NCBI GenBank assembly: GCA_008632985.1
Contig: QPGO01000012.1
Span: forward strand, 744,001-808,000
DNA length: 64,000 bases
DNA from: Psammoneis japonica
Taxonomy: Eukaryota
Direction: 5' to 3'
Every line of letters starts with the position of its first letter. The stretch's first letter is position 1. Of this stretch, positions 1 through 45,290 are shown in pieces. The notes beneath the pieces were generated by a model. That model saw only the letters and a list, made by a program, of their open reading frames with translations. It was not told the DNA's origin and ran no database searches. The translations under genes and the position numbers were made by a program.

Positions 1-86
1 ATTAAACGGGCTTCATTCTATTCTTCAAGGGTTGTTCTAAATCTGGTGTTTGAAATTGTCTCATAAAATTCGAAGCGTGAGACAAA

Positions 87-10469: not shown

Positions 10470-10654
10470 GTTGTTCTTGCACCAGAAATTGATCCAAACC
10501 CTGTGTTCTGAACTCACAACCCACAACCCCTGTGCACATGGCTTGCCAGGCTTCCCTGCAAGGGTGCCCTGAAACTTGTCATTGTGCACATTCCGCACAG
10601 TCTGGTGCATTGCCAATGCACAAATGTGAAGTTTTTGGGCTTGTCTTGTTGGGA

Positions 10655-11054
10655 CAGTGGTCACCTCTGTTTTGTGGGAAAGAACTGTCAAACAACTCAG
10701 TTTGTGGATGTGCTTCAATGATCACATCTCAACCGCAAAACCCTGTTGTCCAAACAAGCCCTCAGGCTCAGTGCCTTGCCCCCAATTTGCACACCATGAT
10801 TTTGGCTCTGCCACTTGTTTTCTCCAGAAACTTGTGCTCAGTCATTTGACACAGACCAAGTCTGCATTGTTTTGCTCAGATTGGTTTTTTGACAAGGAGA
10901 GCGAGTGAAACAAATTCCTTGCATGTGAAAAAAGGGGCAAGACACTGAGAATTTGTTTGGATGATGGGGTTTGTGGTTGAGATGTGATCATTGAAAGACA
11001 TCCATCAACTGAGTTGTTTGAAAACTCTTTTCCATAAAATGGAGGTGATCACTG
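10655..11054. repeat. About 110-bp imperfect inverted repeat (foldback/MITE relic)
   Basis: 10655..10765 matches the reverse complement of 10945..11054 (shared core TTCAATGATCACATCTCAACC); arms differ at several CA/TG and TA/TG sites. Confidence 0.75.
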
Positions 11055-13249: not shown

Positions 13250-14900
13250 CAGAAATCAAGGTGTGGGGCTTTCTGTCATGCAGGCCCCACCCACACTCAC
13301 ACCCAGAATGGCAAGCTGATGGACAGGTGCAACCTGCAGCAAATTGCACCCTGTCGCCAGGAGGAGCACACACCTTGGTCTCCAAAGAGGTGCCCAACCC
13401 TTTTCCAAGGCTTCGCCAAACCCATGGAGGGCAACGACAATCTTGGATGAATGGATCACAGTCACTGCAGGGGTCTCTGGTTCCACAATCCAAGCCACAG
13501 CATGCAAGTCCAAAAGCAAACAAGATGTGCACAGGGATCAACTCCTGGCTTGTCTCCCACACGGTGCACCCAACTTGCAAATTCCTTGCTTGACATTGCC
13601 CAGTTGTCAGGCTTGCAATTGGGATGCCACAAATCCACAGCAAGATGAGTGCCTTTCAACAATGGTGGGGTCAAGAAAGCACAGGTCATGGCAAGGAGAA
13701 CCAAGAACCCGTGCTTCCACTCCAAGTCCTTGCAGTCAAAGAAGGGGAGGAAATTGTCTGGGTGACCCTTGCACTCAGCATGCATGGCTGGTGCAGAGCC
13801 TTTCCCCTCATCCCACTTGGCCTGAGCCGAGACTGAATGACATCACTCTCCCCAACACTTGGAAAATGGCTCTCCAGCCCAAGCTCTCATCTCAGCCTGA
13901 GAAGGGGGTCACACACCTTCCTGCCTGTGCATTCTGAAGGCCCAAGCATTGCAGTTGAGAGGCCATTTGATGGGCCATCTGCCACACCACTTCTTCACTT
14001 GCTTCCATTCCCCTCAAATGACCCACGAATGTTTTAATGTCACCCGCAATTGCCTGAAGCCGTGAACTCCATTTCATCACAAGCACTTTGTTCACCTGAA
14101 AATTTGGGTCACCTGGGAGGTTGCACACAACCTTGTCAATTCCCACTGCACTTGACAAGCAGAGAGGATCACCCCCAGCCACCTTGTCAGCCCAACAGTG
14201 CAGTGGCTGGACTGCCAAGTGTGGACCAGGGGCATTCCCACAAACAGACAAGTCTGCCATTCCAGCCCCAGCACTTCAGTGTTGGAGCCCAAGAGAGGTG
14301 CTGGCAAATGTGACTTGAGAGGGGTTAAATCAACATCCACACACAGACAAATCTTTGGGTCCATGAAGAAGTTAAGAAACATGATGTCCCCCAAATCAAG
14401 GTCCACCAAGTGGGTGGCTTCCCTGTCATGCACCCCAAAACAGATGCTGGAGCAGGCAAGAAAAATGAGTGGAGCTGCAAGGCATTGTCAATGAGGCATG
14501 ACACCATTCCACTGCAAACCACTCAAACATCCTTGAGGCTCCATGCAGACAGCCTTGGGTGCCCAAAAACAGTTGGCAAGACTGAGTGCACACCCACGTT
14601 GGATGTCTTCTCCCTGCTTTCAAACCTTGTGGACCTCATTGGCTGTCCTTTGAATTTCCCCTGTTGTTCCATGGATCCTCTGACACCTGTGATTCTGTGG
14701 AAGTGCACCTTTGACAAAAATGGGGATCCCATCCCAAGCTGCACACCTCTTGGGCATGGAGGGCCAATGCCAGAACAACAACAAGGAGCCGCTGTGCCAG
14801 CCCCACCAAGAACTGCATTCTTGAGCTGCCACCTGGCCAAGGTTGCACAAAAGCAGATTTGTTTCTCTTTGTCTGGCTTCTTGACTTCACCCTCACAAAC
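13250..14900 (-). mobile_element. Relic RT-RNase H of a DIRS/Ngaro-like (tyrosine-recombinase class) retrotransposon
   Basis: Fragments in order: DLDLGDIMFLNFFMDPKI..VDLT; NLPGDP..VMKW..IAGDIKTFVGHLR (eroded FVDD); SQLQCLGLQNA; KDLEWKHGFLVLLAMT..LKGTHLAVDLW; HGFGEA (from YGFGDA, RNase H); multiple frameshifts. Confidence 0.65.
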
Positions 14901-17471
14901 ACAAGCCTCTTAACTTTTTTGCCCTGCTTCTGCTGCTGCTCATCTTGTGCTGGTGTGTGCTGGAGATCATTTCCAGCCACCTCACACATGCTGTGGGGGC
15001 AGGGTTTGCTCTGTTTTTATCTTTCATTTTTTTGTTGCTCTTGCTGCTTGCTGCTCCAATGTGCGCAGAGCCACTTTCTGTTGTTGCTGCTCTTTTGCTG
15101 TTCTTTTGGTGTTTCTGTGAAGCACTGTGCTGGAAGCTCTGCACAAACAAAATTGAAAAGATGATTTTCCAGCAGAGAGGTCATGGAGAGCACCACACTT
15201 GCTCTCATTTGACAGAAGCACCGCATGGCAGCAGAGAGGCACCTTTGGCAAACTCCAACACTTTCATGTGCTTCAAGACCATGGCAGCTGTTGAAACAGC
15301 TCTTTGTGAGGCAGCTCTCAACAGCAACTAGACCACACACCCAAAGTGGTGTTGAGAACACTTTGCAGGGTGCTTCTTGGCCATGGACAACCTCACAATT
15401 TTTGGCTGGCCAGCTGGGGTGGGGCAACAGGCCTGAGCTCTTGCCTGGCTGCTTTGCAGAGCATCTCAGCTGTTTGCTTTTGGCACCCAAAGCAGTCCTG
15501 CAATTTTCCTTTTTGGCATGTTGTTCATCCCCTTCCCTTGCTTCTTCAAGCAGCAGCATGCAAAGCTTTTTGTGAGAGCTCTGGAGCGGGGTGCTGCCCT
15601 GGCTTCTTGCTCTGCCTCCTGCAGCCATCAGCCATCAGCGCTGCAGAGCTGGACACTCTGCCTCTGCTCTCAAACTCCTTTTGTGTGCACCACATTTTGA
15701 TTCTCAAATTGTTCTTTGTCCTTGAGTGCAGCTGCCTTTGGTGTTGGGTGCTTGTGGAGTCATCAGCTCACCCCACTTTAAAACCTGCTTGCTTTTGCCT
15801 GCTGACTCGCTCTCTTGCTTGATGGAGTCAAGTCAATCAAAATCCACTGCCCACACTGCTGTGACCTTGCAGGGCACGATGGAGTGACAGGGAAATTGGC
15901 CAAACCAGCCCATTCTGACAAGATTGACACTCAACTGCATGACCCATTGCTTCATTGATGAATGTGAAGTGCAAATCCTCACACAAGCCGCTGCAGACAA
16001 AGTGTGTGGTCCTTCAAAAAAATTCTCAAAGTCAGAAGAAAGCACAGCACCCATGCCAGCAGAGGCACCAAAAAGAGACCAAATTGAAGGTTCAGTTGAT
16101 GTTCTTGCAATCCCATCACAAAAGCAAAATGCAGCAACGATGCTGTGCCAATCAAAAGAAAAACATCTGGTCACTGCCTTTGGGTGCAAATGAACAATGC
16201 ATGCTCAGTTCATCAATTGCAACATTGTGAACATGTGGCTGCAGTGGATGCACTCATCTGTCATCCTGTCCTCCACACCACCACTGAAAGCATGTGCAAA
16301 TGCATCATCCTTGCCAGAAGCCTGCTCTCCTCCTTCTCCTTCTTTGGCCACTTCACTTCTTTTTTGTTTTCCAGTCACATGTGCAGTTGGTCTAGATTCT
16401 GGATGCAACAACGTGCTGTGTGGACCACATTTGTGTGTTGTCTCACCTGCACCTTTGTTGCAGTTGGTGGCAGTGGGCTTCAAAAAACTCTTCTTCGACT
16501 CTGCTCCACTTTTCACTGTTGTGGTTGACTGGCTCACTCTGTTGCTCTGTGTCCAAAGGCTCGACTCCACGGGATCTTTTTGTTTTGATCTCTTGCTTTT
16601 TTTTGAAACAGCGCGAGGCTCACTTCATCAAGCAAGCAACACAGCTGTTGCGCGCACCAACAGTTTTGCACTCAAGGTGAATGCTGCAGCTGAGTGCACA
16701 CATTTCCAGCACATGCTGACAATGATGACAGCACCCGCTCTGGGGGCAACACAGGATCGTGCTTGTTGTTCCCGGTGCACACCGACAATGCTGTCAGCAG
16801 TGCCGCTCTTCCCAGAAATGGCAGAGATTGCAGTTTGCCACAAAAATGCTCCAAGCCCTTGTTTTTCTGCACAGTGGTGGCCAGCGATTGGCGCAAAACA
16901 AAAAAGAAGTGACAAGCAAAGGAGGAGTGTGGCAAGAGCTGAGCAGCTTTGGAGCGCGATGCTGGCCCACCAGTTTTCCAGAACTGCTGACCCTAGAAAA
17001 CACTTAAGTGCCGGCAGTCTCCAGCAGTCAGTGAAAATTAGACCATTTCCATGCCTGGTTGTGCGTGGCATTTTTGGCGGGAAAACCAATCACATCTCCT
17101 CGTTTCTGAATGATTTGATTTCAGTCTGAAAGTCGTTGAGCTCAAGCGCTTATTGAGCAACAGAATGACTTATTCATATTGCCTTCCACTTGTATTAACA
17201 ATTTACATTGACGTAAGTTGTTAAATAAAAATTGATATATATATATAATAAATTGTGGCTACAGAATAAAAGAAGGTTTCCTATTTATCTTTAAAATTAG
17301 AATTCTTTGACAAGGCCCAACAATGTTTCATTCTTTCGAATTTTTGCTGAAGCCGCGTTTTCAAGTTGCACTTTCTCATTCGTTCTTCGCAAGCGATAAA
17401 AGGAGTTCTTTTTTGGACAACAACAACAGGTACTATTATTGTCTTGCAAACCTCGCTTTTGATTCGTAGCC

Positions 17472-23323: not shown

Positions 23324-24325
23324 TTACTTTTTCTTTTTACTCATCCTTTGTTCATCCGCATCCTCCATCCCGCGTTTGCATGCCTTCTTCACCTTCTTCT
23401 TCTCCTCTTCCTTCCGTTTTTCCTCAGCCTTGGCCCATCGTATCTGGCATTGTTTGATTTTCTTTAATCTCTTTGATTCAAGGAAATCAATGAACTTTTT
23501 GCGCCGGACCTCTTGGCAGATGCGGCGTCTAAAAACTGCCAGCTCAAACTGTTGATGCTCAAGGCATGAAGCATGCAACTGTGCGCCTGACATCCTCAAA
23601 TGCAGGCCATTCACCACATCCTCTCGGAGGAGCGGTTTTGCTGCAGACAAGTCAAAAACTGGCTCCCCACGATGGTTGTGTGTCTGCCTTGGATGCACCA
23701 GCAGATCACGCCTGAGTGCTTCCATTTCAAAGACTGATCTGTTTACATTGCATGACACTTGGGCCCTGTGGTCGATTGATTGCTCCTTGAACTGACAGAA
23801 TGGAACTTTGCGGAATTCTTCAATGTTTTTGTGTGCCATTTCCCATGCTTCTTTGGGAGTCATTTCATCGTCCGTCAGTGGTGGGATGCCGCTTTCCAAG
23901 TCTCCACGAACAATGATCCTTGCTTCACTGTTGGTCCAATCAATCCTTGGTTGCTTGACGGGTTCCAGTCCTGGGTGGGACTCCGAACATCAAATAAACG
24001 GCCAAGTTTGTGGTGCAATTGTGCCTCTTGCCACTCGACATTTTTGCAAGTGCGGCTGCCCCACGCAATTCTTAAGACATTGTAGAATCGCGCTGCAACA
24101 AAAAATGTCAAAAGTTGTTGGACGGATCGCTCAACAAGTGCACCACAAAATGACACAAAATTTCACAAAAGTCTCGTACAATTCTACGTGCGCGACATGC
24201 GGTGCGATCCAAAAAACTGTCGATGTCACAGTTCAGCAGTGCGAGGTCCCACCTAGAGCTGGAACGCGTCGCTTGGGCTTCTTGGGCTTCTTGCTCGGCG
24301 TGGGTGATGCCGACGGATTCATCAT
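23324..24325 (-). pseudogene. Transposon accessory ORF B (second-ORF type), interrupted by a MITE
   Basis: Removing 23957..24270 plus one TSD gives the continuous frame MMNPSASPTPSKKPKKPKQPRIDWTNSEAR...; two repeated (W/F)xxSxAxxxL/VxxD modules. Confidence 0.7.
23957..24270 (-). mobile_element. MITE (GACG...CGTC termini, 4-bp TSD GCTT), partly TpA-converted copy
   Basis: TIR GACGGGTTCCAGTCCTGGGTGGGAC and its inverted partner; GCTT at 23953..23956 and 24271..24274; reverse-complement homolog of 33262..33651 with an internal deletion. Confidence 0.9.
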
Positions 24326-29053: not shown

Positions 29054-32000
29054 CCAGTGTCTAAGGAAATTGTAAACACAGCATGGCACAGTTTTCATTG
29101 CATAGATAATTGAAATGTTGTTTACAGCAAATGTTACAACTAATTAGTCACAAAGAAAGCAATGGGAATGACTCACTGGCGGTCTTTCTCTGCTGACGGT
29201 TTTGCTGATTCCTTGTCTGCAGGAGCCTTCAACAGAGAAATAGAAGATGCATTGTTCACTTCTCTAAGGATTCGGCTGGATGCCTTCCTGCCTCTTGTTT
29301 CTGACACAGCTGTGGCCTTGATGGATCAATGGGATCTCCTTTGAGGAAGTCACGACAGTGTGGCGCGGTGGAGGTGTCACCATGCCCAGAGTCTTGGCGG
29401 CTCAAAGCTTCACTGCAACAAATTTCCATTGGCCAATGGGCCTCTTTTCCAACTCAGAGAATGGGAAGTAAAGGACATTCATCCATTTCTGCTCACATTC
29501 CAGCATCATACCGTCTTCCGCAACGCCGACTTGATCGAGAAGATGAGAGGCGCCAGAGCACTCGTCTCGAGCTTTTTCACCAGTGTTGAGACTGGGAACC
29601 ACTTCTTTCCACCTGAAATGTTTTATGTCGATTAGGTTCTAGGACATGAGTGACAAAGACTCGAATACCGGTGTTAATGTCCCTTTTGAGGGCTTCCAGG
29701 TTATTGTTGGCGGCTGCCTTCGGAGCTGCTGGGATGCCCAAAGTGGAGTTGTCATTTCCCGTCTCCTGCATGACATGACAGCGATGTTTTTGCACACATT
29801 GTTAGCAATGGCATGTGACATCAACAATGCGCCGAAACATCGGCGTTGAACACATTACTTTCGACAAACGACATCGTCAACAGCAGCGGCACTCACCATT
29901 TTGTTTTGTCGCGGTGAAAGTGTGGAAAAATTAGTTTTTTGCGTTGGCCTGCAGCAGTGATATATACTATATATACATTAATATCTGTGGTACAACGTTA
30001 ATATTTCTACGCTACTATGTCGCCGAAATAAGCACCGTGAATTGTCGTATGACAATACGAAATGTCGCATTTGTCCTTGTTGGAGACATTTTCGTGAGTG
30101 TTCCTGGCGGTCTGGGATGGGGAGCTGTGCTGGAAAAAACGTCTTGCATCGTTTCGCGCGTTTTTTCGGTGAAAAACACGAGCAGACAACGACTGCATGT
30201 TACCGCACCGGCACCACATGCCGACGAATCGTAAGCCGAAGATTGAGCCGAGTTGTGCATTTCACACGAACAACTAGTTGCACTAAGACCATTGTCTAAA
30301 GCAGCATTTTCTCATGCTAATCAGTTGCTGACAACCCCAAATCCTAATCTGTGCATTGAGTCAAATGCATGTGCATCCCATCCACGACGCTCGCGGAGCG
30401 GCCACCGCTGCGTAGAAATGGCATTTTGTACTGTGACGTCATCTTGCACGTAGATTCTACGGCAGTACTGAAAAGCCGCTCCTTCCTTCTTTTTTTTGGG
30501 CCGAAATTCAGATCTGCCTCCCACAATTCACAGTACAAAAAATGCGTAAAAGTTACGGAACGAAAATGGTGAGTCGCCGTTCATCGGTAAGAACGTTACT
30601 GCTTGCATTCTTGGGTCAACATTCGCAATGTTTCAATTGTATCTCATCATTTACTTACATGTCTGTCGTTCTATGTAAAAACATTGCGAATCTTGGGACT
30701 TACAGAGCGAAAAAAAGACTTTTGCTGCCGCCCACTTGTTTCACCCGATGTCGCTGCTTCCGACAACTTCAGGCGACGTTCTCAAGGTTCAACATTGAAG
30801 GTGCGGCATAGGATAACGTTCATTCGTCGATATTTATGATCGAGATGAAGGAGAAAATATCCTGACTGTTGTGGGAGGTGATGCTGAGCTGAAAACAAGA
30901 GCTCATCCAAATGTGCATCCGTCGCCTTGGTCCTGTCGCAACCGCCTGATCGACTCAGAATGCCAAGAAATTCATGAGGAGGGGTTGTTCAAGGAATTAG
31001 AGAGCCCCTTCATGTAATAAAGGAAGCTACTATGGGCAAGACAAGGAAACAAAAGAGCAATTCAAGGACGTGAGAACCCGCAAGCTGGTGGACCCACAAA
31101 TCTGCCAATCTACCACCGGAGACAATTTGCAATGTAGGAGACGACTCCTAGTTTTAACTAGCAATTATAAGCACTAGTCCATGCTAATTTATCATATTAC
31201 TCATTGATAATTCTATTCTCATCATTGCAGTAGTGATTTCTAGCGCTTGGAGCCTTCAAGAGAGAACTGCTTGCGCTCACCAAGTTCCGGATCAAATCCA
31301 CTTTTGGGCTTCAATGGCACTTATTGTTTTTGTTGACTCTTGCCACTACTCATATTCAATGTCCTTCTATGTAGTGGATGCTTCCTGGACTATTGTTAAG
31401 CCTTAAATCTACATTATTAACAAACTACGCATCGTTCCGTGCACTCAAAATGATGAAAATGTGTGTCCGTAAAAAGGGTTCCGGCCAGCTATCGTCAATT
31501 ACCAGTCACTGGTAGTATTTTCTACAGTTTGATCCCGATCTTAAGAAGCATTGACCGCATAAAAAAGCATCTTTGCAGACAATATGAACAATTTAAGCTG
31601 TGCTCCGCATCGATTTGGTTGGAGCTGGTACATTCACAGGATCAGAGGTCCAACTGCTTACGGCTCCTCAGGAACTCGCATGGATTCTTGACTTCTGACA
31701 ACCACCCAGGATCGTCTCATTTAGGCATAGAGGGAGGAGTATGAGGCGTAGGTTGAAACTTTTGGATGGTTTAATGTAGACATTGAGCCGATTTGATTGT
31801 CGAAAATGATCGTGACAGCAAGGATTGCCGCGCTTGCTTTTGTTTTTGACACGGAAAACACTGCCAAAGAAAGAGCTTGTGACTTTCTATGTCACCTTTA
31901 TCGAATATATCGTCCAAGTCATGGGTACCTGCATAATACATTCCACTGTACACCTTCAAAACATTTGCTGTCGTGTCGGATGCAGAAGACACAAAGAAAC

Positions 32001-32354
32001 TGAGTGAAAAGTTCAGATGACGATTAAAGGCATCAAATGAAGATTTCTTGCTTTATTACCCTTACCTTATGATCAAAATGAGGTTTTAACATACTATCCA
32101 GGTGTTTCTTACACTTGGTGTTAAATATTGCCGCCGCCGCAACCGATCTCATGGTCGACTTGAGTTGCGTCGCGTGTCTGCGTTTTGGATGAAGAAACAT
32201 TGATTTTATGGGTTATGAGCGTTTTGTCGAAAATCACAGCGATGGCCGCGCGGACGTGGCCCAAAAGCGTCGTGCATCCGCGCCAACATGAAGGCTCCTG
32301 ATTGTCACCAATGAGTCCAAGACCGCCGCCTGCAGCATCAGGCTCGGTCTACAG

Positions 32355-33169
32355 GTGAACCGCGCCGGATCGGATCGACGGATCGGATCGCGTCAGAATT
32401 CTGTTAGTCGACAGGTGGAACCGGATCGGATCGCGGATCGGATTCGACATTTCGATGAGTCGCAAAACGACATAAGTTTTAAGATTCCAAACTCCCAAGA
32501 ACAACAAACTGACAACAGCGAACAACAAGAAGTGAGGCCATGATGCTTCACATCTTGTCATAACGAGACGATATGACGACAGAACTACGCTGTTATTACT
32601 GCTTTACATTCTTACTTGACCATATCATTGAACATCGTTGTCACTCAGTATTTGCAGCAACGCTAAGGAAGAAAAAGCTATCACTTTTGTAATTAAGAAA
32701 CTGACGCTATGTTTTCGTATTGAAATTTCGAATTACATAATAAATACTTGTTATTTTGCTTATTCAATGTTTCTCCAACAAATCTTTACGGTGTTATCGG
32801 TTTGACAAGCTATTCTGTTGCCATACGACCTTTTACATCTCCATTTCAAGCATGGGAAGACTTAGGCTGTAATGCTAAGGAAGTTATGTGCCCTTATGGC
32901 TGAATCTTATGCCGCCCTGTGTCACAATCGTGTGATGTTGCGCCATTGTCGTGATGACGGCACGGAATCTTCCAAATTCGATCCGACATCCGATCCGGAT
33001 TTTCGGATCGGACGGTCTTCGGAGCAAAATATTTTGCTCCGAAGACCGTCCGATCCGAGATGGCGGATCAGTCCCACGAAGGCCACGGATCGACTTTTTG
33101 ACTCGATGGACTAACATTTTAATGGGTATGAAGGAGTCGATCCGGCGATCCGATCCGGCTCGGCTTGAC
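32355..33169. mobile_element. Non-autonomous element with GGATC-repeat TIRs
   Basis: Left GTGAACCGCGCCGGATCGGATCGACGGATCG versus right reverse complement GTCAAGCCGAGCCGGATCGGATCGCCGGATCG; AT-rich centre; no TSD identified. Confidence 0.65.
33003..33058. repeat. Perfect 56-bp spacerless palindrome
   Basis: TCGGATCGGACGGTCTTCGGAGCAAAAT followed directly by ATTTTGCTCCGAAGACCGTCCGATCCGA. Confidence 0.95.
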
Positions 33170-33261
33170 TTTTGGATTCTCCATCGCGCAGCATGTCGAA
33201 TCTTCCGACTTGAGGTCCACATTATGAATGATCCTGGACCCATCGCGCCCACCCAACAAAT

Positions 33262-33651
33262 GACGCGTTCCAGGTCTAGGTGGGACCTCGTACTGCTGAA
33301 CTGTGACATCGATAGTTTTTTGAATCACGTCGTATGTCGCGCACGTAGATTTCTACGTGATTTTTTCGATATTTTGTGTCATTTTACGGTACACTTATTG
33401 AGCGATCCGTCCAACAACTTTTGACATTTTTTGTTACAGCGCGATTCTATAATGTCTTAAGAATCGCGTAGGGCAGGCGCATTTGCAAAAACGTCGAGTG
33501 GCAAGAGGCATAATTGTACCACAAACTTGGCAGTTTATTTGATGTTGAAGATAAATGTATCCATTAATTAAATTCTCGTACTACGGAGCTCGCACGTAGA
33601 ATTCTACGGGCCCAATGTCACACGGAGTCCCACCTAGGACTGGAACCCGTC
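33262..33651 (+). mobile_element. MITE (GACG...CGTC termini, 4-bp TSD AAAT), essentially unconverted copy
   Basis: TIR GACGCGTTCCAGGTCTAGGTGGGAC versus right reverse complement GACGGGTTCCAGTCCTAGGTGGGAC; AAAT at 33258..33261 and 33652..33655; TpA-rich. Confidence 0.9.
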
Positions 33652-34151
33652 AAATGGACCTTGTTGATTTTCCCAGAGACCTGGATTGGCGAGGGAACGA
33701 TGGCCGTGGAAGACAGGACCTCAGAGTCAGACTGCCTCGTTGAAGCCAGCTCATCCGAAAGAGCTTCAAGGCACTTGTGCATGTCACGCAGTTCATCATC
33801 GCCACCACCCATGTCCGTGGAGTGCTGAGGCCATTGGGAGACGCAACTGAGCATCATTCCATTGCCCACAACAGACAGCTGAATGCCAGAAAGGTCCGTG
33901 GTGCAAACACCAGATGGAGCCACAACAAACAACATGACGTGATTGGTCTTGGTGACAGAATCCTTGCAAGTGGCTTGCAAGACCATGGGCTTGAAGCTCT
34001 TCTCCAACCCCCTCCTTGCCCACCACCACGCCCCTCCACCACAAGAGCAACACCAGCTCCATTCATGATGCCAGTGGCATCATTGTTGTTGGCAGGAGTT
34101 GGAGCCGACATGTTCATCTGACGAGTGCTGTCCAGGCCGCTGGAGAACAGC

Positions 34152-34427
34152 TGACAGGATTTGAACAGGATTTGGATGCGCGCGAAGTGTCGCGCGCTGT
34201 TTAGTTTACCGCGCACAGTTTTGTGTGCTTTAGTTCCGCGCGTTCACGCGCGATGTAGTTTGCTTTCGAGCCACAAGGCTCACAAGAATGATGACAGCAG
34301 CCCGATCACACCGACTTGCCCGTCTTTCGGCTCCTGCAACGGTCTCTGAGCGGAGACTCATCTGCCATTTAGACAGCAGTGAGGAGTCATTGTTTGAATT
34401 CTTGCCATTTGCCTTCAATTTCTGTCA
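34152..34427 (+). repeat. 5' LTR
   Basis: TGACAGG...TTCTGTCA; 14 transition differences from the 3' LTR. Confidence 0.95.
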
Positions 34428-34440
34428 GATTAACAGTCTT
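34428..34440 (+). promoter_or_regulatory. Putative primer-binding site complementary to the tRNA-Asn(GUU) anticodon arm
   Basis: GATTAACAGTC directly after the LTR is the reverse complement of GA-CTGTTAA-TC; no TGG (CCA-complementary) start. Confidence 0.6.
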
Positions 34441-35366
34441 GCTCATTGTCAACCCATTGAGCAACCGCCATCGTCGTCGTTGATTTACCAACGACGCCAT
34501 TTCAATTCTACGTGGACCTCCGTATATATTCTACATACATCGGCAAGTCTACGCGCATTCAATACCAGGGCATCGGCAGGAAGTTAACGTCACCGTCAAG
34601 TCTCCTTACCGCTGGATATCTGGATTGATTATACTACCTTTGATCGCTGAAGACATACATTCAACGGTCATATCCAAGTCTATCCTTGATCCTCATCCCT
34701 TGATATACCTATTCATCGGTTAACGGTCAAGAACCCTACATATTCAAGGATCTTCGTCGCTGAAGACATATATATATATACATATCTTCACGGCCAAGAA
34801 CCTGTACCCACTCTTCGGACTGCGGTTTTGCTGCCACTCTACAAGCACACCGAGTCCATTGTACCTGATCTACCCCGGACTGCTGGTGCTCTACAGTTCT
34901 ACTAGGTCCACGAGGATGACTGTGAGAGCAAGCAGCCGTGATTACAACCTGCGTTGGGGCGAGGGTGCTTTCCCGCGTTTGTTCGTTCGTCCACAGCGCC
35001 CAACGCCTGCGTCAACTGGCCAGCCTGATCGGGAAATCCAACCGACATAAAATAAGAACGGTTCGGGGGTCTTGTCCACCTCCAGTCAGCTTGCCTGCAG
35101 GGGTTTACAACCCGCCGCTCCGCTCGCAAGCAACCCAAAGCGCCGCTGGCTGCGGGTTCGGACGTGCCGGCACAACTCTGCAGACCGGACAGGAAGTTTA
35201 GCACTTGACAACGAACGGGATAACAAAGCCCGGCGACTTCTGATTTTAAGATGGTTCAAGATTTCAAGTCAAGTCCATTTCAAGTCAAGCCTGTTCTCAC
35301 CCAAGTTTCGAGTCTGCCTTCGCTTCCCAACCCGAATTGATTGTCCTGACACCACTTTTATCTACC

Positions 35367-38300
35367 ATGGTTCTCACTCGTCAGCAACAAACCGATGGTT
35401 TCGAGCACGTTGTTGGAACCGTGCTTGCCCAAGGTGCTGGGAGTCCTCTTCGTTTGGCTTTGGCCCAAGACGGCACGGACTCGCATCAGGAACTGTTCAC
35501 GTTCACACCGTCCCAAATCGACTCGCTTGAGTGCGACAACGGCACTGGTGCAATCCCTTTGCCCCGTGGTTGTAAGAACATGTTAGCAGCACTAGTTAGC
35601 CTGTGCATTGTCAAAGCACACAAGGGTCTTGACGTTGCCAACGACTCCTCTTTGTTCGCGCATGACGAGTTCCTTGCCCACCGCCTCAGCCCGGACTGCA
35701 TGTCCTCTGTGTCCATCGGCAGCTCACCCCTTGCACCTCCACATGTCACCAACCCGACCAAGGCATGCGACCCGGTGCGAGACTTCAAGCGAGGCATCAA
35801 GCGTGATCCCACCGCTTTCACGGCTCTCAAATCCGACAAGCAGTGGCACACTTGGCACACCTCACTTGTGGCACAAGCCCGTGCCCAAGACGTCGAGTGC
35901 ATTCTAGACTCGTCGTACAAACCGACCAGCCCCGAAGACAAACTGCTCTTTGCTGAACAGCAAAAGTGCATGTTCGCCGTCTTCGAACGCATCCTTCTCA
36001 CCGACAAGGGCAAGGCTCTCATTCGCGAAAATGTGGGGTCTTCTGACGCACAGACCGTCTGCCGCTCCTTGTCTGAGTGCGCGCTTGCCTCCACCCGTGC
36101 ATCTGTCGAGTCCTCCACCCTGCTCACGTACCTCACCACCGCACGTCTTGGTGATGGCACTTGGAAAGGCCCGACCCACGGGTTCATCCTTCATTGGCAA
36201 GATCAGTTGCGCAAGTGCGAGGCGCTCATCCCTGCCAGTGACCACTTCTCTGAAGGACAGAAGCGCGTCATGCTCGAGAATGCCGTGCACCCTGTCGAGG
36301 AACTCCGTGCTGTCAAGAACCAAGCTGATCAGCACCGCACGCAGAGTGGCAAGAGCCTCACATGCGATCAATGCTGTGGCTTGCTCCTCTCCGCGGCAGC
36401 TCAGTGCGACAGCACGTTTCAACCCAAGACGACACCCAGAGCTCCCCGACGCGCCACATGCGCACATGACGTCTGCTCCGAGGAACCGTCCGACGATGTG
36501 TTCTACGACATTGACAGCGACGTTGACGTCCTTCAAGCCAATGCTGCCTGCACCCGCGGTCCCAGCCTCACCGGTGTCCAATGGAGACGTCTCCCTCCCG
36601 ACCACCAACGGCTCTGGGATTCGTTGCCCGATTCCTCCAAGGCGATCATCCTTGAGCATTCTGGTCCGCCTCCCTGCAACCCGCGAGCCAGTGACTGCCA
36701 TGAGTCTGTTACGGCCAACCTTCACGACCAACACCTTGGGAGTGACGGTGATGTCAACTTGTCCAACACGACTCCTGCTGACTGTGGTGACCCCGCCACA
36801 CATGTGGACGCCACTTCGGACAATCCCATCCTGGCGCACCTCACCAAGCGCAAGCCACTGCCACCCGGTGATCTGCAACGTCTGTTGTCTCCTAACCAAG
36901 CCCCCAATGCCAGTCGACCGGGGCCATCCGCCGCTTCCTCTACCCCGCCAGCTTCTGCAGATAACACAGAACTTAACGGCCGCACTTGCCGCCGCGTCAA
37001 CAACCACAATGTCATTTGCTCTGCCTCTGCTCATCGCTCCACACGCACTGGCGCTCTAGTCGATCGTGGGGCCAACGGCGGCATTGCTGGCGACGACGTT
37101 CGCGTCATCGCACGCACCTCTCGCCAAGTCGACGTTCAGGGCATTGACGATCATCAATTGGTGGACATCCCCATTGTCACCGCTGGTGCCGTCATTGAGA
37201 CCCAGCGTGGTCCCGTCATCGCCATCCTCCATCAGCGCGCATGCACGGGAAAGGGCAAGACCATCCATTCCTGCGGCCAGCTCGAATGGCACAAACAGGA
37301 TGTCAACGATCGCTCTGTCAAGGTGCCCAACGGCTTGCAACGCATTGCCACTCCTGATGGCTGTGTCATCCCCATTGACATCAAGGCTGGCCTGCCTTGT
37401 GTTGCCATGCGACCTTACACTGACGCCGAATGGACACCCTGCCCCATGTCATCCTCACCGGTGATGACACATGGGACCCTTCCGTCCTCGATCACTCTGT
37501 CACTGACGACGACCAGTGGTACGACGCGATCTCTGACCTACAGGACGATCCCACTGCCAACCCATTTGACGAATGCGGCAACTACCGTCACCGTGTCGTT
37601 GTCAACGAGACCATCTTGTCCGCTTCCTTGTCTGCCGATCACGCGTCCGCCCTCGATGATCACCTCATTCCGAACGACGACGTGTTCTACGAGTGTCATC
37701 TGCATGCGATTGACCCCCAGGGCGATGACGTTCCACCTCCGGAGCGCACTGTACAGCCCAAGGACCCCCCCTTCGAGTCTCTTCGGCCTTGCTTTGGCTT
37801 CCCACCTGCCGATGCGGTCCGTCGTACTTTTGACTGCACCACGCAGTGCGCCCGCATGCCCGCCGGTACACACCTTCGCAAGGCCTGCAAATCACCCAAC
37901 CCCGCCCTTAATGTGCACCGCCGCAACGAGCCTGTCGCCACTGACACCGTTTGTGCCGACACCCCGGCCGTCGACTCTGGTTGCACCAGCGCCCAACTGT
38001 TTGTTGGCACCGAGTCTACCGTCACTGACGTCTGCGGCACTAAGACGGACAAAGAGTTTGTCAACACACTCGAGGATCAGATCCGTGAACGTGGTGCCCC
38101 ATCCAGCGACCGTGCTCAAGTTGAGATCAGCAACAAAGTGCTCGGGATCCTACGCGCCCTCTTCATCTCCAGCTGGCAAAGTGAGCCTCACCAGCAACAC
38201 CAAAACTTTGCCGAACGTCGACACCAGACCGTGAAGCGCATGGCGAACACTGTCATGGACCGTTTTGGTTCGCCCGCCCACACATGGCTGCTGGCGCTCA

Positions 38301-41080
38301 TGTGCGTGTGCTTCATCCTCAACCACACAGCGTCCCCACGTCTCCACTGGCGCACACCCCTCGAGACTCTCACTGGATCCACCCCGGACATCAGCCCATT
38401 GCTTCGCTTTCACTGGTGGGAACCAGTGTGCTTCCACCTCGATGATTCCGATTGGCCGTCCGAATCCCGTGAGTTGCGTGGACGCTTCGTTGGCATTGCT
38501 GAGCACGTCGGCCACCAGATGACCTTCAAGATCCTATCTGACGAGACTCAGAAGATCCTCTGCCGGTCCAACGTTCGCTCCGCTGCCCCCGATCCTGCCG
38601 TTCAAAACCTGCGTCTTGATCCTCCTGATGGGGAGCCACCTGAACCCATCATCAAATCTCGCCATGACGACAACCCCATCGATTCTCCTGATGGGGAGAT
38701 CAGGACACCCAAGATGCCAGTTTTCGATCCGCAAGACATCATTGGACGTACCTTCCTCATGCAGCCACAAGAGGACGGACAACGCCACAGAGCTCGCATC
38801 GTCAAGGCCGTCGAAGACCACGAATGGAAAGTGAACGGCAATCCCGAGCTCACTAAGTTCGTCTGCTCTGTCAACAATGACGAATGCGAGGAAGTCCTTG
38901 CCCACAATGACATCATGAATCACATTGAGCAAGAAGACGAAGACACCACCATTTGGAAATTTCGACGCATCGTGTCACACGAAGGACCTCTGAAGCCTCA
39001 CGACCCAACCTGGAAAGGCTCAAGCTACAACATCATGCTTGAATGGGAAAGTGGGGAGATCACGTCCGAGCCTCTTGCCATCATCGCCAAGGACGACCCC
39101 GTCACCTGTGCCATCTATGCACGAGAGAACGGACTCCTAGACACGGATGGCTGGAAGCGGTTCCGCACTATCGCGAGGCGCCAAAAGAAGCTATTTCGCA
39201 TGGCCAGCCAAGCCAAGCTTCGCTCCTTCCGCACTGCACCTCGCTACAAGTGCGGATACGAAGTTCCCCGGAACTACAAACACGCCATGTCACTGGACGA
39301 ACGCAACGGCAACCGCAAGTGGGGAGACACAACTAATCTCGAGATGGACCAACTCGACGAATACGAAGTCTTCCATGACTGCGGGCCCTTCAAGTCTTCC
39401 ACTCCTCCTGCGGGACACAAGAAGATCCGAGTGCACCTGGTGTTCGACGTGAAACACGACGGTCGCCACAAGGCACGACTCGTGGCCGACGGGCACCTCA
39501 CGGACGTACCTGTCGACAGTGTCTACTCGGGAGTAGTCTCCCTCCGTGGCCTTCGGCTGATGATTTTCCTGGCTGAACTCAACGAGCTGGAGACATGGGC
39601 CACCGACATTGGCAATGCCCACCTTGAAGCCACCACCAAGGAGAAGCTTTACATTGCAGCTGGACCCGAATTTGGCAAACTCGAAGGACACATCCTTGTC
39701 ATCCACAAGGCACTGTATGGACTGCGCAGCTCCGGTCTCCGCTGGCACGAGCGCTTCGCCGACTGCCTGCGAGCTGAAGGCTTCTTCCCCTGCCGCGCCG
39801 AACCCGACATTTGGATGCGCAGGAACGGCGACCACTGTGAATGCATTGGCGTTTATGTGGATGACCTCGCCATTGCCATGAAAGACCCTCAATCTTTCAT
39901 CGACACTCTCACGGAAAAGTGCAAGTTCAAGCTCAAGGGTGCAGGACCCATTGAGTTCCATCTGGGTTGCGACTTTTCCCGGGACCCCGACGGAACCTTG
40001 TGCCTGTCTCCGCGCAAGTACATCGAGCGCATGGTCGACAGCTACGCCCGATTGTTTGGGGAGAAACCTGCCACCAACACCCTGTCACCTCTAGAGAAGG
40101 GTGACCACCCCGAACTGGACACTTCCGAACTGCTGGGACCCGATGGCATTCACAAGTTCCAGTCTCTTGTTGGTTCACTCCAATGGGCAGTGTCCCTTGG
40201 TCGAATTGACATTACCACGGCTGTCATGTCACTCTCTAGCTTCCGAGCTGCACCCCGTCAAGGCCACTTGGATCGTGCCAAACGCGTCTGTGGGCACCTC
40301 TCCAAGATGCGACACGGTGCTCTCCGCGTTCGTGCGGAAGAGCCCGACCATTCGGATCTCCCTGCTCCGGCCTATGAATGGATGCATTCCGTGTGTGGTG
40401 AAGCAGAAGAGATGGTCCCGAAGGACGCTCCACCGCCCCTTGGCAAGTTCGTCACTACCACCCACTGCGTCGATGCAAACTTGTGCCATTGCATGCTCAC
40501 CGGACGCTCTGTCATGGGAATGCTCCACTTCCTCAACAAATTCCCGGCTGATTGGTTCTCCAAGAAACAAGCCACCGTGGAGACTGCAACCTGCGGATCT
40601 GAATTTGTTGCCGCAAGGAATTGTGTTGAGCAGATTGTCGACCTGCGCATCACCCTGCGCCACCTTGGCGTCCCGATCCGTAATGTCAGTTACATGTTCG
40701 GTGACAACAAGTCGGTTGTAGACAGTGCCACCATCCCGCACTCCAAGTTACACAAGCGACACACCGCACTGTCGTTCCACCGTGTGCGTGAGGCAATTGC
40801 CTCTGGTTACCTTGAGTTCCACTTCATCGAAGGCTCCCGCAACCCTGCTGACATTCTCAGCAAGCATTGGGGTTGCTCCCAAATCTGGGACCTTCTCCGC
40901 CCCCTCATGTTCTGGAACTTCATCCCATCCGAAGTCGAATCTGTTTCTGTAGCTCCTCAAGCAAACTGGGGAGTGACAGGATTTGAACAGGATTTGGATG
41001 CGCGCGAAGTGTCGCGCGCTGTTTGGTTTGCCGTGCACAGTTTTGTGTGCTTTAGTTCCGCGCGTTCACGCGCGATGTAG
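35367..41080 (+). pseudogene. Copia gag-pol polyprotein, Tyr-eroded, with one -1 frameshift at ~37433
   Basis: Gag FKRGIKRDP; protease LVDRGANGG; integrase VATDTV...SDRAQVE...QNFAERR; RT HKARLVADG, KALYGLRSSG, GVYVDD; RNase H VDAN..ETATCGSEF..GDNKSV..NPADILSK. Confidence 0.92.
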
Positions 41081-41249
41081 TTTGCTTTCGAGCCACAAGG
41101 CTCACAAGAATAATGACAGTAGCCCGATTGTGCCGACTTGCCCATCTTTCGGCTCCTGCAACGGTCTCTGAGCGGAGACTCATCTGCCATTTAGACAGCA
41201 GCAAGGAGTTGTTGTTTGAATTCTTGCCATTTGCCTTCAATTTCTGTCA
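40974..41249 (+). repeat. 3' LTR
   Basis: Direct repeat of 34152..34427, same length, followed by the TSD. Confidence 0.95.
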
Positions 41250-42604
41250 ACAGCTGCTCGTCGTCGGAATCATCGGCACCTGGTGAATGCACGGCGAGAA
41301 CAACAACAGCGCGCGCAGCGCGCGGTCAAAATGAAGGTGCAAGCATCAGCAAAGATGTGACGTCACTTCCAATTGTCACACATTCATGCAGGAACACAAT
41401 CAACAATCGACACTCACCGTCAGGGTTCTCGTTCATCGTGCGACGAAGATTGAACCTGGTTTCGTCTTTGAGCCTGTGCAAGCCAGTGCGGAATCTGTCC
41501 AGTGGACAGCGCATGAACTCTGCGTGCATCTGCTGGATCTCTTTTGGCATCGCGCCAGGGCTGATCTTGCCCTCCATCAACATCTCCTTCAGGACTTTAC
41601 AGGCGGCAGATCCCTTGTGCCATTGTGGATGAACAAGGGGGGCAGCGGCCTCCGTGTCAAGAACTGATTTGGTTCGTTGATTGAGTTTGGGCATGTTGTT
41701 TTTTTTGTTTTCTCTTTTTTATGACAGGATGGATGGTGCAAAGTCAAGAGGCGTCAAGATCCACACTCGCATTGATGGTCAGCAACGAGAACCCCATTTT
41801 TGAATGGGTCACGGCCAACCCACCTCACCACTTTCCGCGGGATGCTGCTCTTTTCAAATCTGAAAACCCCAACCGTCAAAATGAGATTTGAGAGAATCCC
41901 AACCGCCAAAAGTGAGAAAGGGCCTCTTGACATTGTGGGGGGCCCTGGATTCCCTCAAGTCCACCCTAAAAACGTTCCGAGACCGCACTGAAATCGTTCG
42001 CAAATCACACAAAATGATTTCCGGCTCCAGAACGATGACTTTGGGCCGTCTCAAATGAGGAATGATTGGCTTGAATGCAGCCACAGCTCATGATGACAAT
42101 GGCACTAACAGCAAACTTTGGCGCGCAGTTTCATTCTGTCTTTTCAGCAGCATGTTCACGCGTGCTCTTCATCCATGAAAAGTCGTTTTCATTTTGATTT
42201 GCAGACAAACGCGTTTCTTTGAAGCCCTGCCATTGATGGATCATGGGATTGAAATGCTGTGTCACATGTTGCAGCTCTGCTGCTGTGTCAGTTGAGCCAA
42301 TGGCATGCCTTGGAGCAGTCAGTGTGCTGGTTCCGGTTGAGATGAGGACACCCAAACTTGCCTTTTGCGTTCGTTTTGAAGTCACCATTCTGAAACCGCA
42401 CCCGAATCGCATTTTTTTCGCACTTTCGTCACACACCAGGGAATCTCACGAAAGGCCTCTTCAAATGAGAACCCCAACTGCACCAAGATGACAAAACACA
42501 ACTCTCAACAAACAACTGCTCTAACAGCAGAGACCAGTGGCACATGTGGCACAATTGACAAAAGTTTAAAATGACACTTGGGTGTGCACTGGTGGTTGCC
42601 AATC

Positions 42605-43490
42605 ATGCGTCTGCCCAAAGAGGCACTGGAGTGCTTGGCACAGACAACAATTCAGAAGCCAAAAGGGTCACCCACAGCATGGAAATGACGGCTCGCTTCA
42701 TGCTTCTGTACCCCACAAGAAGTGGCATCTGAGTTGCGGGGGCTTCTGGAAGACGACGGAAAAATGCCGTGAGGATTTTTGCCCATTCACCCACTGTGCA
42801 CCCTTTGCTTTCTCAAATTGCATGAATCTGAGACAGTCGTTGCCGGAATCTGTAACAAAATTCATGAAGACACGCTGAGAAAATGGGTTTGGGTCGGCAC
42901 TCAACTTGTTGGACAGTTGGATTTGGTGCGTGTCATTCCAGACAAGCTCCCACACATGAGACAAGTGAACTGGCACCTTTTTTAGATTCACTGGGAAGAC
43001 CGCTTCATTGGCGACAATGGCAGCACTTGTTTGGTGACACTCAACAGCACTGATTTCAGAATCTACGAGCCGTCGCCATTCAATCCAATGTGGCTCTCCC
43101 ACAAATTCCACGGTGCTGGGCTGTGGTGTGAAATTGGAACATGCACTCAAACAGGGTGGATTGTTTGGGTCAATGGACCATGCCCAGCTGGGTTGCCGGA
43201 TCTGAGCATTGCTCGCGAATGGATCATTGAAGAGCTTTAAGACGGCAAGATGCACCTGGCTGCCAGCACAGCTTGACTCCATCCGGCCTAAGAAATGCAG
43301 ACAAGGCCATGAAAACAATGGCAAGGGCAAGGCATGAGGCTGTGAATGGATGGTTCAAGCATTTCGGAACACTTCAGAAAAGACACCGCCACGCGAAGGA
43401 AACACACTGCCATGTGTTTCATGCCGTGGCCAACATCACACAGTTGGCCCTCATGATGGGCTGCTCACCATTTGATGTCGAGCATTTGAC
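42605..43490 (+). pseudogene. Second DDE_Tnp_4-like (PIF/Harbinger-like) transposase, degraded
   Basis: FLKLHESE..TLRKWVW; IHWEDRF..VTLNSTDFRIYEP..WLSHKFHGAGLWCEIG..WVNGPCPAG..D; RARHEAVNGWFKHF..RHRH..VFHAVANITQ; TGA stops consistent with CGA decay; probable intron at ~42926..42984. Confidence 0.85.
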
Positions 43491-43499
43491 GGTTGAAAC

Positions 43500-45290
43500 A
43501 ACAGCAAAAAGTGTTTTTTTGCCAAAGTGTTGTTGCCATGAACGTTTCTCAATCTCATCGTCGCTGCAACGCTCTCGCGAGCGAGCACAAGGAAAGAGAG
43601 CCGAGAACCGACCCTGTTGCGTGCCATGTGGCGGGAAATTTGAAAATGCACCGATGACATGATTGTTGTGCCTGCTCATTGCCCCAAGCATCATCATGCT
43701 GCAATGTTGACATCATCATCTGCCTGGCAGGCTTGTCTGCGATTCCTCATGCTGGGTGTGTCCAGCATGAGGGGCCTGGCTCGATTGTTTTGGGCTTTTG
43801 TGCTTTTGGTTGTTGTTCTTGAGACGCGACGTGATCGAGCCAGCAAGAGAATCTTGAAATTTGCCAACACGAGTGGACAAGCAAATGCTTTTGGAAATGA
43901 AATCAGACAACATTGGTGGTGTCGTTGAAGGCTTTTCACATCGAGGCTGTGATTTGGGTGTTTGGCATCTGCGGCAATGCATGTGCTGCTGCTGGTGGCA
44001 TCTGTCTGCACCCCCAATGCACAGGACGCACATGGCACCTGGCGCCACGTGTCATCAAGTTGTGCCACAGCAGCACAATTGTTTTTTCCAACAGCTCCCT
44101 GATCATCTGTCAGGTTGTCTCAAGGGTTTGATGCACAGGTGGTGGGTTCTTTGCTTCAGCAGTCATTGTCGTTGTTTCACAATTTTGTGGCTAAAGAAGG
44201 TTGCCTGCTCTTTGCTCCATTGCAGGCTTTGCTCACCTTGGGGACAAGGTTAGACTGGTGGACTTGCTCATTGCTTTGTCACAAAGTGCGTGCCATGTGG
44301 TGCTGGCACAACACATGTGAGTCTTCTCATTCTTGCATGTGTCTCATGTGGACAGCCCAGAAAGCTGTTCACCTGATGCGACCAAATGTGGTGTGCAGAG
44401 AGCACAAGCATGGGGCTGTGTGACAATGTGAAGCAGAGCTTTCTAGAGCAAACTGGGCTTGAAAATGGCCTCTCTGCACATGTGCCCAGCACACATGTCA
44501 GCCACCGCCACATTTTGTTCATCCTCTCTCTGCCACCAGGCCACCATGTGCAAAGCAGCAAAACACACATCTTTGGATGATCCTGCCATCAAGTTGGGTC
44601 ATCTGAAAAAAAGCATGGGGTTTGACAAACAGTGCCTGCCCATCGCATCAGCCAGCCAAAGAGCCCAGTTTCATGCACTGGCTCCTTGTGCACATGGCAG
44701 AGCAGTGCTGTTCAGCCATGCCCAGGAAGAAGTGTGGCTCATTTTGAGAGGGTGTGGCTCTCAAATTGGGTGATTGCAGAGAAGTGTCTGGAGGAGAGCC
44801 TGTCAATGCATGTCATCTGCCCCCAACAGCAGCACAGCAAAGCAAGCATGAGGATGGTGGCATGACTTGTGGCCAATGTTGCATGATGTAAAATGCAAAT
44901 GATCAGGGTTTTGACGTTGCGACACAAAATTTGAATGAGCAGGATTTTGACACAGTTCCCCACTCACACAAAAAGGCTCCATTTTTGCAGACCATTTCCT
45001 CTTCAGATCTCACACAACAGCTTTGGCCAATGGCTCATGACATCACTCTGATTGCTGCAACCAAAATGCTCAACAGATGTTTCTGCCAGAAGTTGGGCCT
45101 GGTGAGATGCATGCTCCGAACATGTTGCACAAGAGAGAGCCAGGCTTGAGGCTCTTTTTCTTGACCAGCAGCTCCTGCAAGACATGACCGTGTTGCTAGA
45201 ATTCCATCCTTTTTTGGATACGCTGTTGCTTCTTGAGGACTGGAGGGCAGTGTGCATTGACATCAAGTTGAGGCAAAGTCCATCACATCA
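43500..45290. mobile_element. TpA/CpG-depleted repeat relic
   Basis: TG/CA-rich composition; only spurious ORFs; sharp return to normal composition near 45290. Confidence 0.55.

What the first reader, a model, noticed from the sequence alone, without database searches (positions are those of the whole stretch)
33262..34151. Young insertions are unconverted while host TE DNA is saturated; TpA loss precedes CpG loss
Seen: 33652..34151 has no TpA that I could find in ~500 bp yet keeps many CpG, while the MITE inserted into it is TpA-rich. The 9551..10469 insertion is likewise TpA-rich inside a fully converted relic. Older tracts (1500..3000, 10500..16600, 43900..45290, 59130..60770, 62700 to end) have lost both TpA and CpG. 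Inference: cumulative, time-dependent mutagenesis in which the TpA process outpaces 5mC deamination and both converge on TG/CA-rich sequence, usable as an internal age scale. Short or AT-rich elements escaping targeting is an alternative.
Basis: partly seen in the sequence, partly recalled or inferred. Interest (0 to 1): 0.7.

Follow-up and report, generated by a model that had tools for sequence, protein, structure and literature searches.

The report
TpA-erasing mutation outruns CpG decay
In this diatom-like alga, jumping-gene copies have their TA steps rewritten to TG or CA after they insert, far faster than their CG steps decay, but the rewriting starts at different times in different places, so it ranks insertions only roughly by age.

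Summary
Observation confirmed. 33652-34151 has 0 TA but has already lost about 40% of its CpG; the MITE and the 919-bp insert are near-pristine. Nesting order here (host > copia > MITEs) matches conversion. Across 36 copia copies, 64% of TpA but 4.4% of CpG sites are converted (hazard about 25:1). Twin LTRs differ by 345 TpA-type, 47 CpG-type and 30 other changes. Conversion rises with transversion divergence in two MITE families (rho 0.61, 0.26), only weakly in copia (0.27, p 0.11). It is not a general clock. The same LTR sequence is 26% converted at the 5' end and 59% at the 3' end, and most MITE copies stay at 4-7% at equal or higher transversion divergence than copia. Best reading: a strict TpA>TpG/CpA, non-processive DNA mutator gated by the silent state that also drives CpG decay, probably a TadA/ADAT-type deaminase (unproven). 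Precedent: one 2026 preprint on Bigelowiella natans. The scan noted the phenomenon and the TpA-before-CpG order many times elsewhere in this genome. Added here: measured kinetics, gating, and the same signature in copia from public microbial-mat metagenomes.

The parts
30120..44099 (.). Host DNA transposon (terminal inverted repeats beginning GGGAGCTG), split by four later insertions; TpA nearly saturated, about 58% of CpG kept. Superfamily not established.
   Evidence: Relatives L002-L016 join the pieces 30112-30385, 32262-32340, 33164-33262, 33652-34152, 41249-43550; right end near 44100; no Pfam hit for its ORFs; CpG kept 13/22 and 51/89
33262..33651 (+). 390-bp MITE with 4-bp target duplication (AAAT); 2 of 29 TpA converted, 0 of 28 CpG lost
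   Evidence: at least 310 family copies carry one exact internal motif
33652..34151 (.). Host-transposon segment of the finding: 0 TpA, 15 CpG
34152..41249 (+). Full-length copia-type LTR retrotransposon with 5-bp target duplication (ACAGC); 89 of 146 coding TpA columns converted, 3.1% of 425 CpG lost, 0 private other changes in 5,383 sites
   Evidence: (RVT_2)
34152..34427 (+). 5' LTR; family-wide 26% TpA conversion
   Evidence: 151 of 591 cells
34428..34800 (+). 5' leader, protected from both TpA conversion and CpG decay across the family
   Evidence: bin 34402-34651: TpA 15%, CpG 0.5%, against 45-91% and 2.6-7.3% in bins from 34902 on
40974..41249 (+). 3' LTR; family-wide 59% TpA conversion
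   Evidence: 346 of 590 cells
9551..10469 (+). 919-bp AT-rich MITE with 4-bp target duplication (GTTG); 1 of 77 TpA converted, 0 of 40 CpG lost, 0 private other changes
23957..24270 (-). Second, internally deleted copy of the 390-bp MITE; 12 of 19 TpA converted, 5 of 21 CpG lost
   Evidence: L061
30386..32261 (.). Low-copy insertion in the host transposon, gene-like TpA (o/e 0.63)
32341..33163 (.). Low-copy insertion in the host transposon (TpA o/e 0.64); the empty site is seen in a short-read contig
10470..16600 (.). Old relic, TpA and CpG both near exhausted; for 12600-14600 the nearest relatives over 100 bp are 65-75% identical
44100..45290 (.). Old near-unique relic, TpA and CpG depleted
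1500..3000 (.). Doubly depleted tract (age not tested)
59130..60770 (.). Doubly depleted tract holding a 68%-identical relative of the MITE (age not otherwise tested)
62700..63500 (.). Doubly depleted tract (age not tested; an N gap follows)

Best explanation
A host process changes A:T to G:C only where the pair sits in an intact TpA step, in chromosomal transposon DNA after insertion. It hits either strand one site at a time; once a site is TG or CA it is no longer a target. TpA flanked as R-TA-Y goes fast, Y-TA-R resists. It acts only where a locus has entered the silent state that also causes slow CpG decay: copia bodies enter quickly, their 5' LTR and leader are shielded, and short MITEs enter late or not at all. 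Once on, TpA falls to a 75-85% plateau while CpG has lost 5-20%; CpG then decays over a far longer time. SHOWN: direction, specificity, post-insertion timing, both strands, site independence, order of the two losses, position and family dependence. INFERRED: gating by methylated chromatin (about 0.7) and a TadA/ADAT-like DNA adenosine deaminase as the enzyme (about 0.5).
For: Direction: at 17 Tyr columns conserved in 120 outside homologues (Tyr in 1,911 of 2,023 cells) the 36 copies hold Y 245, C 235, H 94, F 36, R 1. Post-insertion: 37 LTR pairs differ by 345 TpA-type, 47 CpG-type, 19 other transition and 11 transversion changes. Strict TpA need: 6 CG cells against 3,944 TG or CA cells in 163 columns; non-TpA A>G is 144 of 94,801, about 1/400 of the per-base TpA rate. 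Independence: a site x copy model fits with dispersion 0.96; no same-strand excess in 7 distance bins, p 0.13-0.9. Order: copia 3,339/5,195 TpA vs 673/15,159 CpG; old MITE copies 77% vs 20-21%; host about 95-100% vs about 42%. Shared gating: 5' vs 3' LTR TpA 26% vs 59% and CpG 28 vs 53 of 777; leader low in both; the old unconverted 919-bp copies L183, L185, L205 (6-9 private changes) also lost only 1 CpG each. Context: YTAR 49/94 residual TpA vs 123/724 in genes, RTAY 5/94 vs 219/724; the weak off-target A>G shares the 3'-pyrimidine bias, odds 1.9, p 2e-4; TadA-8e prefers TAC on RNA (PMC9126838, one passage). Same signature and order outside this genome.
Against: No methylation data, no enzyme. 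Within copia coding DNA, site conversion does not track local CpG decay or CpG distance (rho 0.03-0.13, all p 0.1 or more). The link between MITE conversion and CpG-retaining flanks was strong in a query-biased set (23/25 vs 10/26, p 8e-5) but weak in the motif-picked set (30/38 vs 16/31, p 0.02; the 54 new copies alone p 0.23). In copia, conversion correlates only weakly with a clock free of A>G (rho 0.28, p 0.10) and not with non-TpA LTR differences (rho -0.03). Private changes in MITEs include time on unsampled ancestors, and two transposition bursts could also give the bimodal spread. A small residual clustering within copies remains (z 5 within 30 bp). TpA is palindromic, so sequence cannot tell attack on A from attack on T. 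Deaminase hits look like ordinary metabolic and tRNA enzymes (my reading).
Confidence: 0.68

Rival explanations
1. Pure clock: all transposon DNA is hit at one rate from insertion on; unconverted inserts are simply young.
For: Nesting order never inverted: 0 of 31 MITE copies over 60% converted has unconverted immediate flanks. Converted copies are older by private transversions: 21/3,336 vs 27/22,476 sites (919-bp family), 21/8,032 vs 6/8,834 (390-bp family).
Against: Twin LTRs of one age differ 26% vs 59%. Unconverted MITE groups have private transversions of 1.2e-3 and 0.7e-3 with 4% and 7% conversion; copia has 0.4e-3 (76/192,040) with 64%. L185 has 6 private transversions and 6/77 converted; L201 has 1 and 57/72.
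Confidence: 0.12
2. The thymine of TpA is chemically modified in silent DNA (for example oxidised) and mispairs to give T>C, as 5mC gives C>T.
For: Slow, site-independent, both-strand accumulation tied to silent DNA fits a mutagenic mark; A and T attack cannot be told apart in a palindrome.
Against: No TET/JBP match in the genome, but the control rang nowhere, so this is uninformative. The 3'-pyrimidine bias resembles TadA.
Confidence: 0.2
3. Error-prone repair synthesis (polymerase-eta type, A>G at WA; signature recalled) triggered by 5mC deamination.
For: TpA and CpG losses co-vary across copies (rho 0.61 and 0.76) and regions.
Against: AA>AG is no higher than CA or GA (16.1, 14.5, 15.2 per 10,000); no strand coordination and no CpG-distance effect; TpA events outnumber CpG events about 25:1 per site.
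Confidence: 0.05
4. RNA editing or reverse-transcriptase error during retrotransposition.
For: A few LTR sites are shared by both LTRs (24 and 28 of 37 pairs), so some conversions are inherited.
Against: Twin LTRs differ at 345 TpA-type positions; both strands are hit; DNA transposons and duplicated methyltransferase genes are converted too.
Confidence: 0.01
5. Assembly or base-calling artefact at a modified base.
For: Short-read contigs are short here and 17 rows of differences were not shown.
Against: Short-read contigs of run X1 cover all 30 bins and list only two differences inside 33652-34151, each from one contig (this run may be the source sample). Double changes are almost absent, copies range from 0 to 96%, and unrelated metagenome assemblies show the same pattern.
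Confidence: 0.02

Closest known systems
TpA hypermutation of integrated NCLDV and virophage DNA in Bigelowiella natans (Mettrop et al., bioRxiv 10.64898/2026.01.13.699255; parts 1-3 of 5 read: abstract to conclusion; methods, references and supplements not seen)
   Same: A>G and T>C almost only at TpA, both strands, confined to foreign DNA, uneven activity, long-term TpA loss with TG/CA gain, some TE-domain genes affected; enzyme unknown, ADAT2 proposed.
   Different: There measured in mutation-accumulation lines on two viral regions (the larger one single-copy) that still hold many TpA. Here it saturates LTR retrotransposons, DNA transposons, MITEs and duplicated genes in another lineage. The text read does not report flank preference, ordering against CpG decay, 5' LTR shielding or a lag in short elements; its closed Table S2 may bear on flank preference.
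Repeat-induced point mutation (RIP) of ascomycetes (features recalled; RID/DNMT4 link from passages of PMC9998398)
   Same: Dinucleotide-specific transitions confined to repeats, cumulative, wrecks transposon genes.
   Different: Opposite direction (RIP makes TpA, this removes it); creates no stop codons and removes Tyr instead; no strand coordination found; sexual-cycle and pairing dependence not shown.
5mC deamination at CpG in silenced diatom transposons (DNMT5; PMC9998398, passages)
   Same: The slower of the two processes here fits it: CpG>TpG/CpA at about 14 times background per base in copia.
   Different: It cannot give TpA>TpG/CpA; methylation itself was not measured here.

Membership tests
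B. natans-type TpA hypermutation | Almost only A:T>G:C transitions in the affected DNA | tested here: met
   345 of 422 LTR-pair changes are TpA-type; direction by outgroup Tyr
B. natans-type TpA hypermutation | Restricted to TpA, both strands | tested here: met
   TG 2,368, CA 1,576, CG 6; non-TpA A>G 144/94,801
B. natans-type TpA hypermutation | Confined to foreign or silent DNA, genes spared | tested here: met
   6 gene regions TA o/e 0.49-0.54 vs 0.03-0.14 in relic tracts
B. natans-type TpA hypermutation | About 1000-fold rate above baseline | tested here: inconclusive
   About 360-fold per base against other changes in the same copies; an average over time, no absolute rate
B. natans-type TpA hypermutation | Active in only some cell lines (on/off) | not testable with these tools
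   One genome only; locus-level unevenness is seen (33 low, 8 mid, 31 high of 72) but is not the same test
B. natans-type TpA hypermutation | Same enzyme (ADAT2/3 proposed) | tested here: inconclusive
   9 PF00383 matches, several TadA-like; none tied to the process; orthology not tested
RIP | C:G>T:A transitions that create TpA | tested here: not met
   TpA is the substrate
RIP | Strand-coordinated runs of mutation (recalled) | tested here: not met
   no same-strand excess in 7 distance bins
RIP | Triggered by homology in the sexual phase | not testable with these tools
   needs crosses; high-copy young MITEs at 97-99% identity are mostly unconverted
Polymerase-eta WA mutagenesis | A>G raised at AA as well as TA (recalled) | tested here: not met
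   AA 16.1, CA 14.5, GA 15.2 per 10,000

The most novel reading that the evidence does not exclude
Diatoms and chlorarachniophytes share an undescribed genome defence: a natural DNA adenosine deaminase, recruited to CpG-methylated chromatin, switches on locus by locus and erases TpA (hence Tyr codons) from transposons and spare gene copies long before CpG decays.
Probability: 0.3. Interest if true: 0.9.

Novelty: new variant of a known kind. Interest (0 to 1): 0.68.

Why it matters
It would extend a mutator so far measured in one rhizarian alga to transposons of another lineage, and give its kinetics and fingerprint (strict 5' T, 3' pyrimidine bias, no processivity, shielded promoters), which can be used to screen candidate enzymes. 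A natural DNA adenine editor would matter to base-editing work. In practice, LTR-divergence dating in such genomes is badly inflated: 345 of 422 LTR-pair changes are TpA-type, so TpA and CpG sites must be masked. Dead elements keep long ORFs and look intact. TpA state can rank nested insertions within one family and region, with CpG as the slower hand.

Tried and rejected
Strand coordination: none. Local CpG decay, CpG distance or density as predictors of site rate: none; local AT content weakly negative, rho -0.24. Periodicity of site rates: none clear. Flank-CpG effect on MITE conversion: strong, not replicated in the 54 new copies; kept as a lead only. 'All private changes' as a neutral clock: rejected, because 144 of 274 are non-TpA A>G that track conversion (rho 0.49); transversions used instead. 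Columns with a single TA may be new CA>TA changes: dropping 10 of 156 moved mean conversion from 66% to 64%. TET/JBP search uninformative. Endonuclease V is present, so loss of that inosine-processing gene does not explain the pattern. Host transposon superfamily: no Pfam hit; a Harbinger-like look is recalled only. No RNA holder listed. No look-alike scan notes in other genomes. Paper searches (listings and abstract starts only) found no report of this in diatoms; the library lacks most subscription papers. Searches were background searches. P0078 (6 of 17 Tyr changed, 1 of 120 homologues) has no name or accession: hint only.

Full report
Setting. The window is G000:C12:744001-808000 of a 91.4-Mb assembly. 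I call it diatom-like from its gene and copia content (recalled resemblance) and from earlier scan notes; no named hit established this. Genes have TA o/e 0.49-0.54; 81 of 211 300-bp bins are under 0.25.

Observation. 33652-34151 has no TA (25.7 expected; 0 of 10,000 shuffles). The two inserts have TA o/e 0.89 and 0.84. The five tracts named have TA o/e 0.03-0.14 and CG o/e 0.08-0.28. The segment has already lost 9 of 22 family CpG columns and probably began with only about 10-15 TA (inference).

Anatomy. Relatives show one DNA transposon, about 30120-44099, split by four insertions: 30386-32261, 32341-33163, the MITE and a 7.1-kb copia. Target duplications mark the MITE (AAAT), the copia (ACAGC) and the 919-bp element (GTTG) as later arrivals. 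Conversion follows nesting. Host: 0 of 10 and 2 of 37 informative TpA columns kept, CpG 13/22 and 51/89 kept. Copia: 57 of 146 TpA kept, 3.1% of CpG lost. MITE: 27 of 29 TpA and 28 of 28 CpG kept. 919-bp element: 76 of 77 and 40 of 40. Two of the five 'older' tracts were checked; their nearest relatives over 100 bp are 65-75% identical, apart from the host-transposon end.

The process. I fetched 37 of the 39 other copia hits (two at contig ends left out). 36 copies including the window's align over 6,500 bases and 37 have both LTRs. They were picked by likeness to a converted copy, which biases towards conversion. LTR pairs differ by 345 TpA-type, 47 CpG-type, 19 other transitions and 11 transversions, so the change happens after insertion. 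Outgroup proteins fix the direction: 17 conserved Tyr columns hold Y 245, C 235, H 94, F 36, R 1 in these copies, against Tyr in 1,911 of 2,023 cells outside. A site hit on one strand is not hit again: 6 CG against 3,944 TG or CA. Events are independent (dispersion 0.96; small residual clustering, z 5 within 30 bp) with no strand coordination. Site rates span about 90-fold from the 5th to 95th percentile. YTAR resists and RTAY goes fast. Non-TpA A>G is rare (144/94,801), flat across AA, CA and GA, and biased to a 3' pyrimidine, which looks like off-target activity of the same agent (inference).

TpA before CpG. Copia coding DNA: 3,339/5,195 TpA (range 13-81% per copy) against 673/15,159 CpG, rho 0.61; hazards 1.16 and 0.046 per site, other changes 0.0016 per base. 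Heavily converted MITE copies: 77% against 20-21%. Host: about 95-100% against about 42%. Relics: both near zero. The order holds throughout; the ratio is about 25 in copia and about 7 in converted MITEs, where TpA is near its plateau.

Conversion against private transversions: 919-bp family rho 0.61, p 3e-5, all 40 scored copies; 390-bp family rho 0.26, p 0.026, 72 of the first 75 of 310 copies found with a motif free of TA and CG; copia rho 0.27, p 0.11; non-TpA LTR differences rho -0.03.

Why it is not a general clock. The same LTR sequence is 151/591 converted at the 5' end and 346/590 at the 3' end (16 of 18 columns; two mostly inherited ones dropped; p 4e-31), CpG loss 28 vs 53 of 777; the leader is low in both. 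Unconverted MITE groups carry as many private transversions as copia or more (27/22,476 and 6/8,834 vs 76/192,040) yet are 4% and 7% converted, partly by inheritance, vs 64%. Single copies break rank: L185 has 6 private transversions and 6/77 converted, L201 has 1 and 57/72. The motif-picked MITE set is bimodal, 33 at or under 20%, 8 between, 31 over 60%. Caveats: private changes include time on unsampled ancestors, and two bursts could give bimodality. A flank effect (converted copies in CpG-retaining hosts) was strong (51 of 60 copies, p 8e-5), weak (69 of 72, p 0.02) and absent in the 54 new copies (p 0.23).

Artefact check. Short-read contigs of run X1 cover all 30 bins of 29500-35400 and list two differences inside the segment, each from one contig; 17 rows were not shown and the run may be the source sample. 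The exclusion of CG and the outside cases weigh more.

Outside this genome. Of 80 copia loci from public metagenomes, 5 have TA o/e 0.04-0.21 with CG o/e 0.57-0.71. L347 against L312 shows 78 TA>TG/CA differences, none the other way, and CG 74 vs 78; residual TpA are YTAR in 37 of 88 vs 1,732 of 10,925. These loci are 63-72% identical to the G000 DNA that I hold (about 1% of the genome) and may come from one campaign; the host is unknown and the same species is not excluded.

Mechanism. Shown: strict TpA substrate, both strands, single hits, post-insertion, position-dependent, co-varying with CpG decay by region and by copy. Inferred: recruitment to methylated silent chromatin. The genome has many C5-methyltransferase matches (27 rows), and DNMT5 silences young transposons in Phaeodactylum (PMC9998398, passages). 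Inferred, about even odds: A-to-I deamination by a TadA/ADAT-like enzyme, from the TAY bias (PMC9126838, one passage) and the proposal in Mettrop et al.. Nine deaminase matches exist; none is tied to the process. A mutagenic thymine mark is the main rival. Polymerase-eta, RNA-level editing and artefact are rejected above.

Comparison and novelty. It works like, and meets the tested features of, the TpA hypermutation reported for B. natans (10.64898/2026.01.13.699255, parts 1-3 of 5 read; supplements closed). It is not RIP. Four paper searches found no diatom report. The scan has noted the phenomenon, the YTAR bias and the TpA-before-CpG order on many other pieces of this genome; those notes gave me the preprint and are not counted as support.

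Verdict. Real and unusual; order and time dependence supported, universal clock not. New variant of a kind known from one preprint. Interest 0.68.

Noticed in passing
L212, L213, L214 (G000:C301 and C297): Duplicated C5-DNA-methyltransferase genes are themselves converted (TA o/e 0.07-0.10, CG 0.66-0.74, almost no Tyr), while other methyltransferase loci are normal.
   Followed up: no
L215 (G000:C34:42155-45664): A methyltransferase ORF lies directly downstream of an ORF with a weak chromodomain match (just under the Pfam cut-off), like the chromodomain-DNMT4 forms described in PMC9998398.
   Followed up: no
window 30386-32261: Low-copy insertion whose short-read variants are mostly transversions (15 of 24 listed rows) and keep TpA; may be an old escapee or captured gene DNA.
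   Followed up: partly
window 32341-33163: Insertion with GGCTCGG at both ends and a 78-bp hairpin; a contig of the empty site has 5 other letters in its place.
   Followed up: no
window 30112-30385: The host transposon end next to TA-rich DNA keeps 7 TpA, 5 of them YTAR; possibly an edge effect.
   Followed up: partly
72 motif-picked MITE loci: 69 of 72 copies sit in TpA-depleted flanks: the MITE lands or survives almost only in transposon debris.
   Followed up: no
L162:313-1785 (-): One stop-to-stop frame holds a TadA-like deaminase domain and a 2OG-Fe(II) dioxygenase; fusion not verified.
   Followed up: no
window 33243-34424: Summed short-read depth near 180,000 (MITE) and 316,000 (LTR) against about 150-250 in flanking DNA suggests far more copies than the assembly searches list (depth is a poor copy measure).
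   Followed up: no
window 81-1184 and 3331-4560; 50366-52567 and 55599-57791: Two pairs of host gene duplicates at 72-77% identity are unconverted.
   Followed up: no
L279: A metagenome copia with CG o/e 0.23 but TA o/e 0.41: CpG decay without much TpA loss, the opposite order.
   Followed up: no
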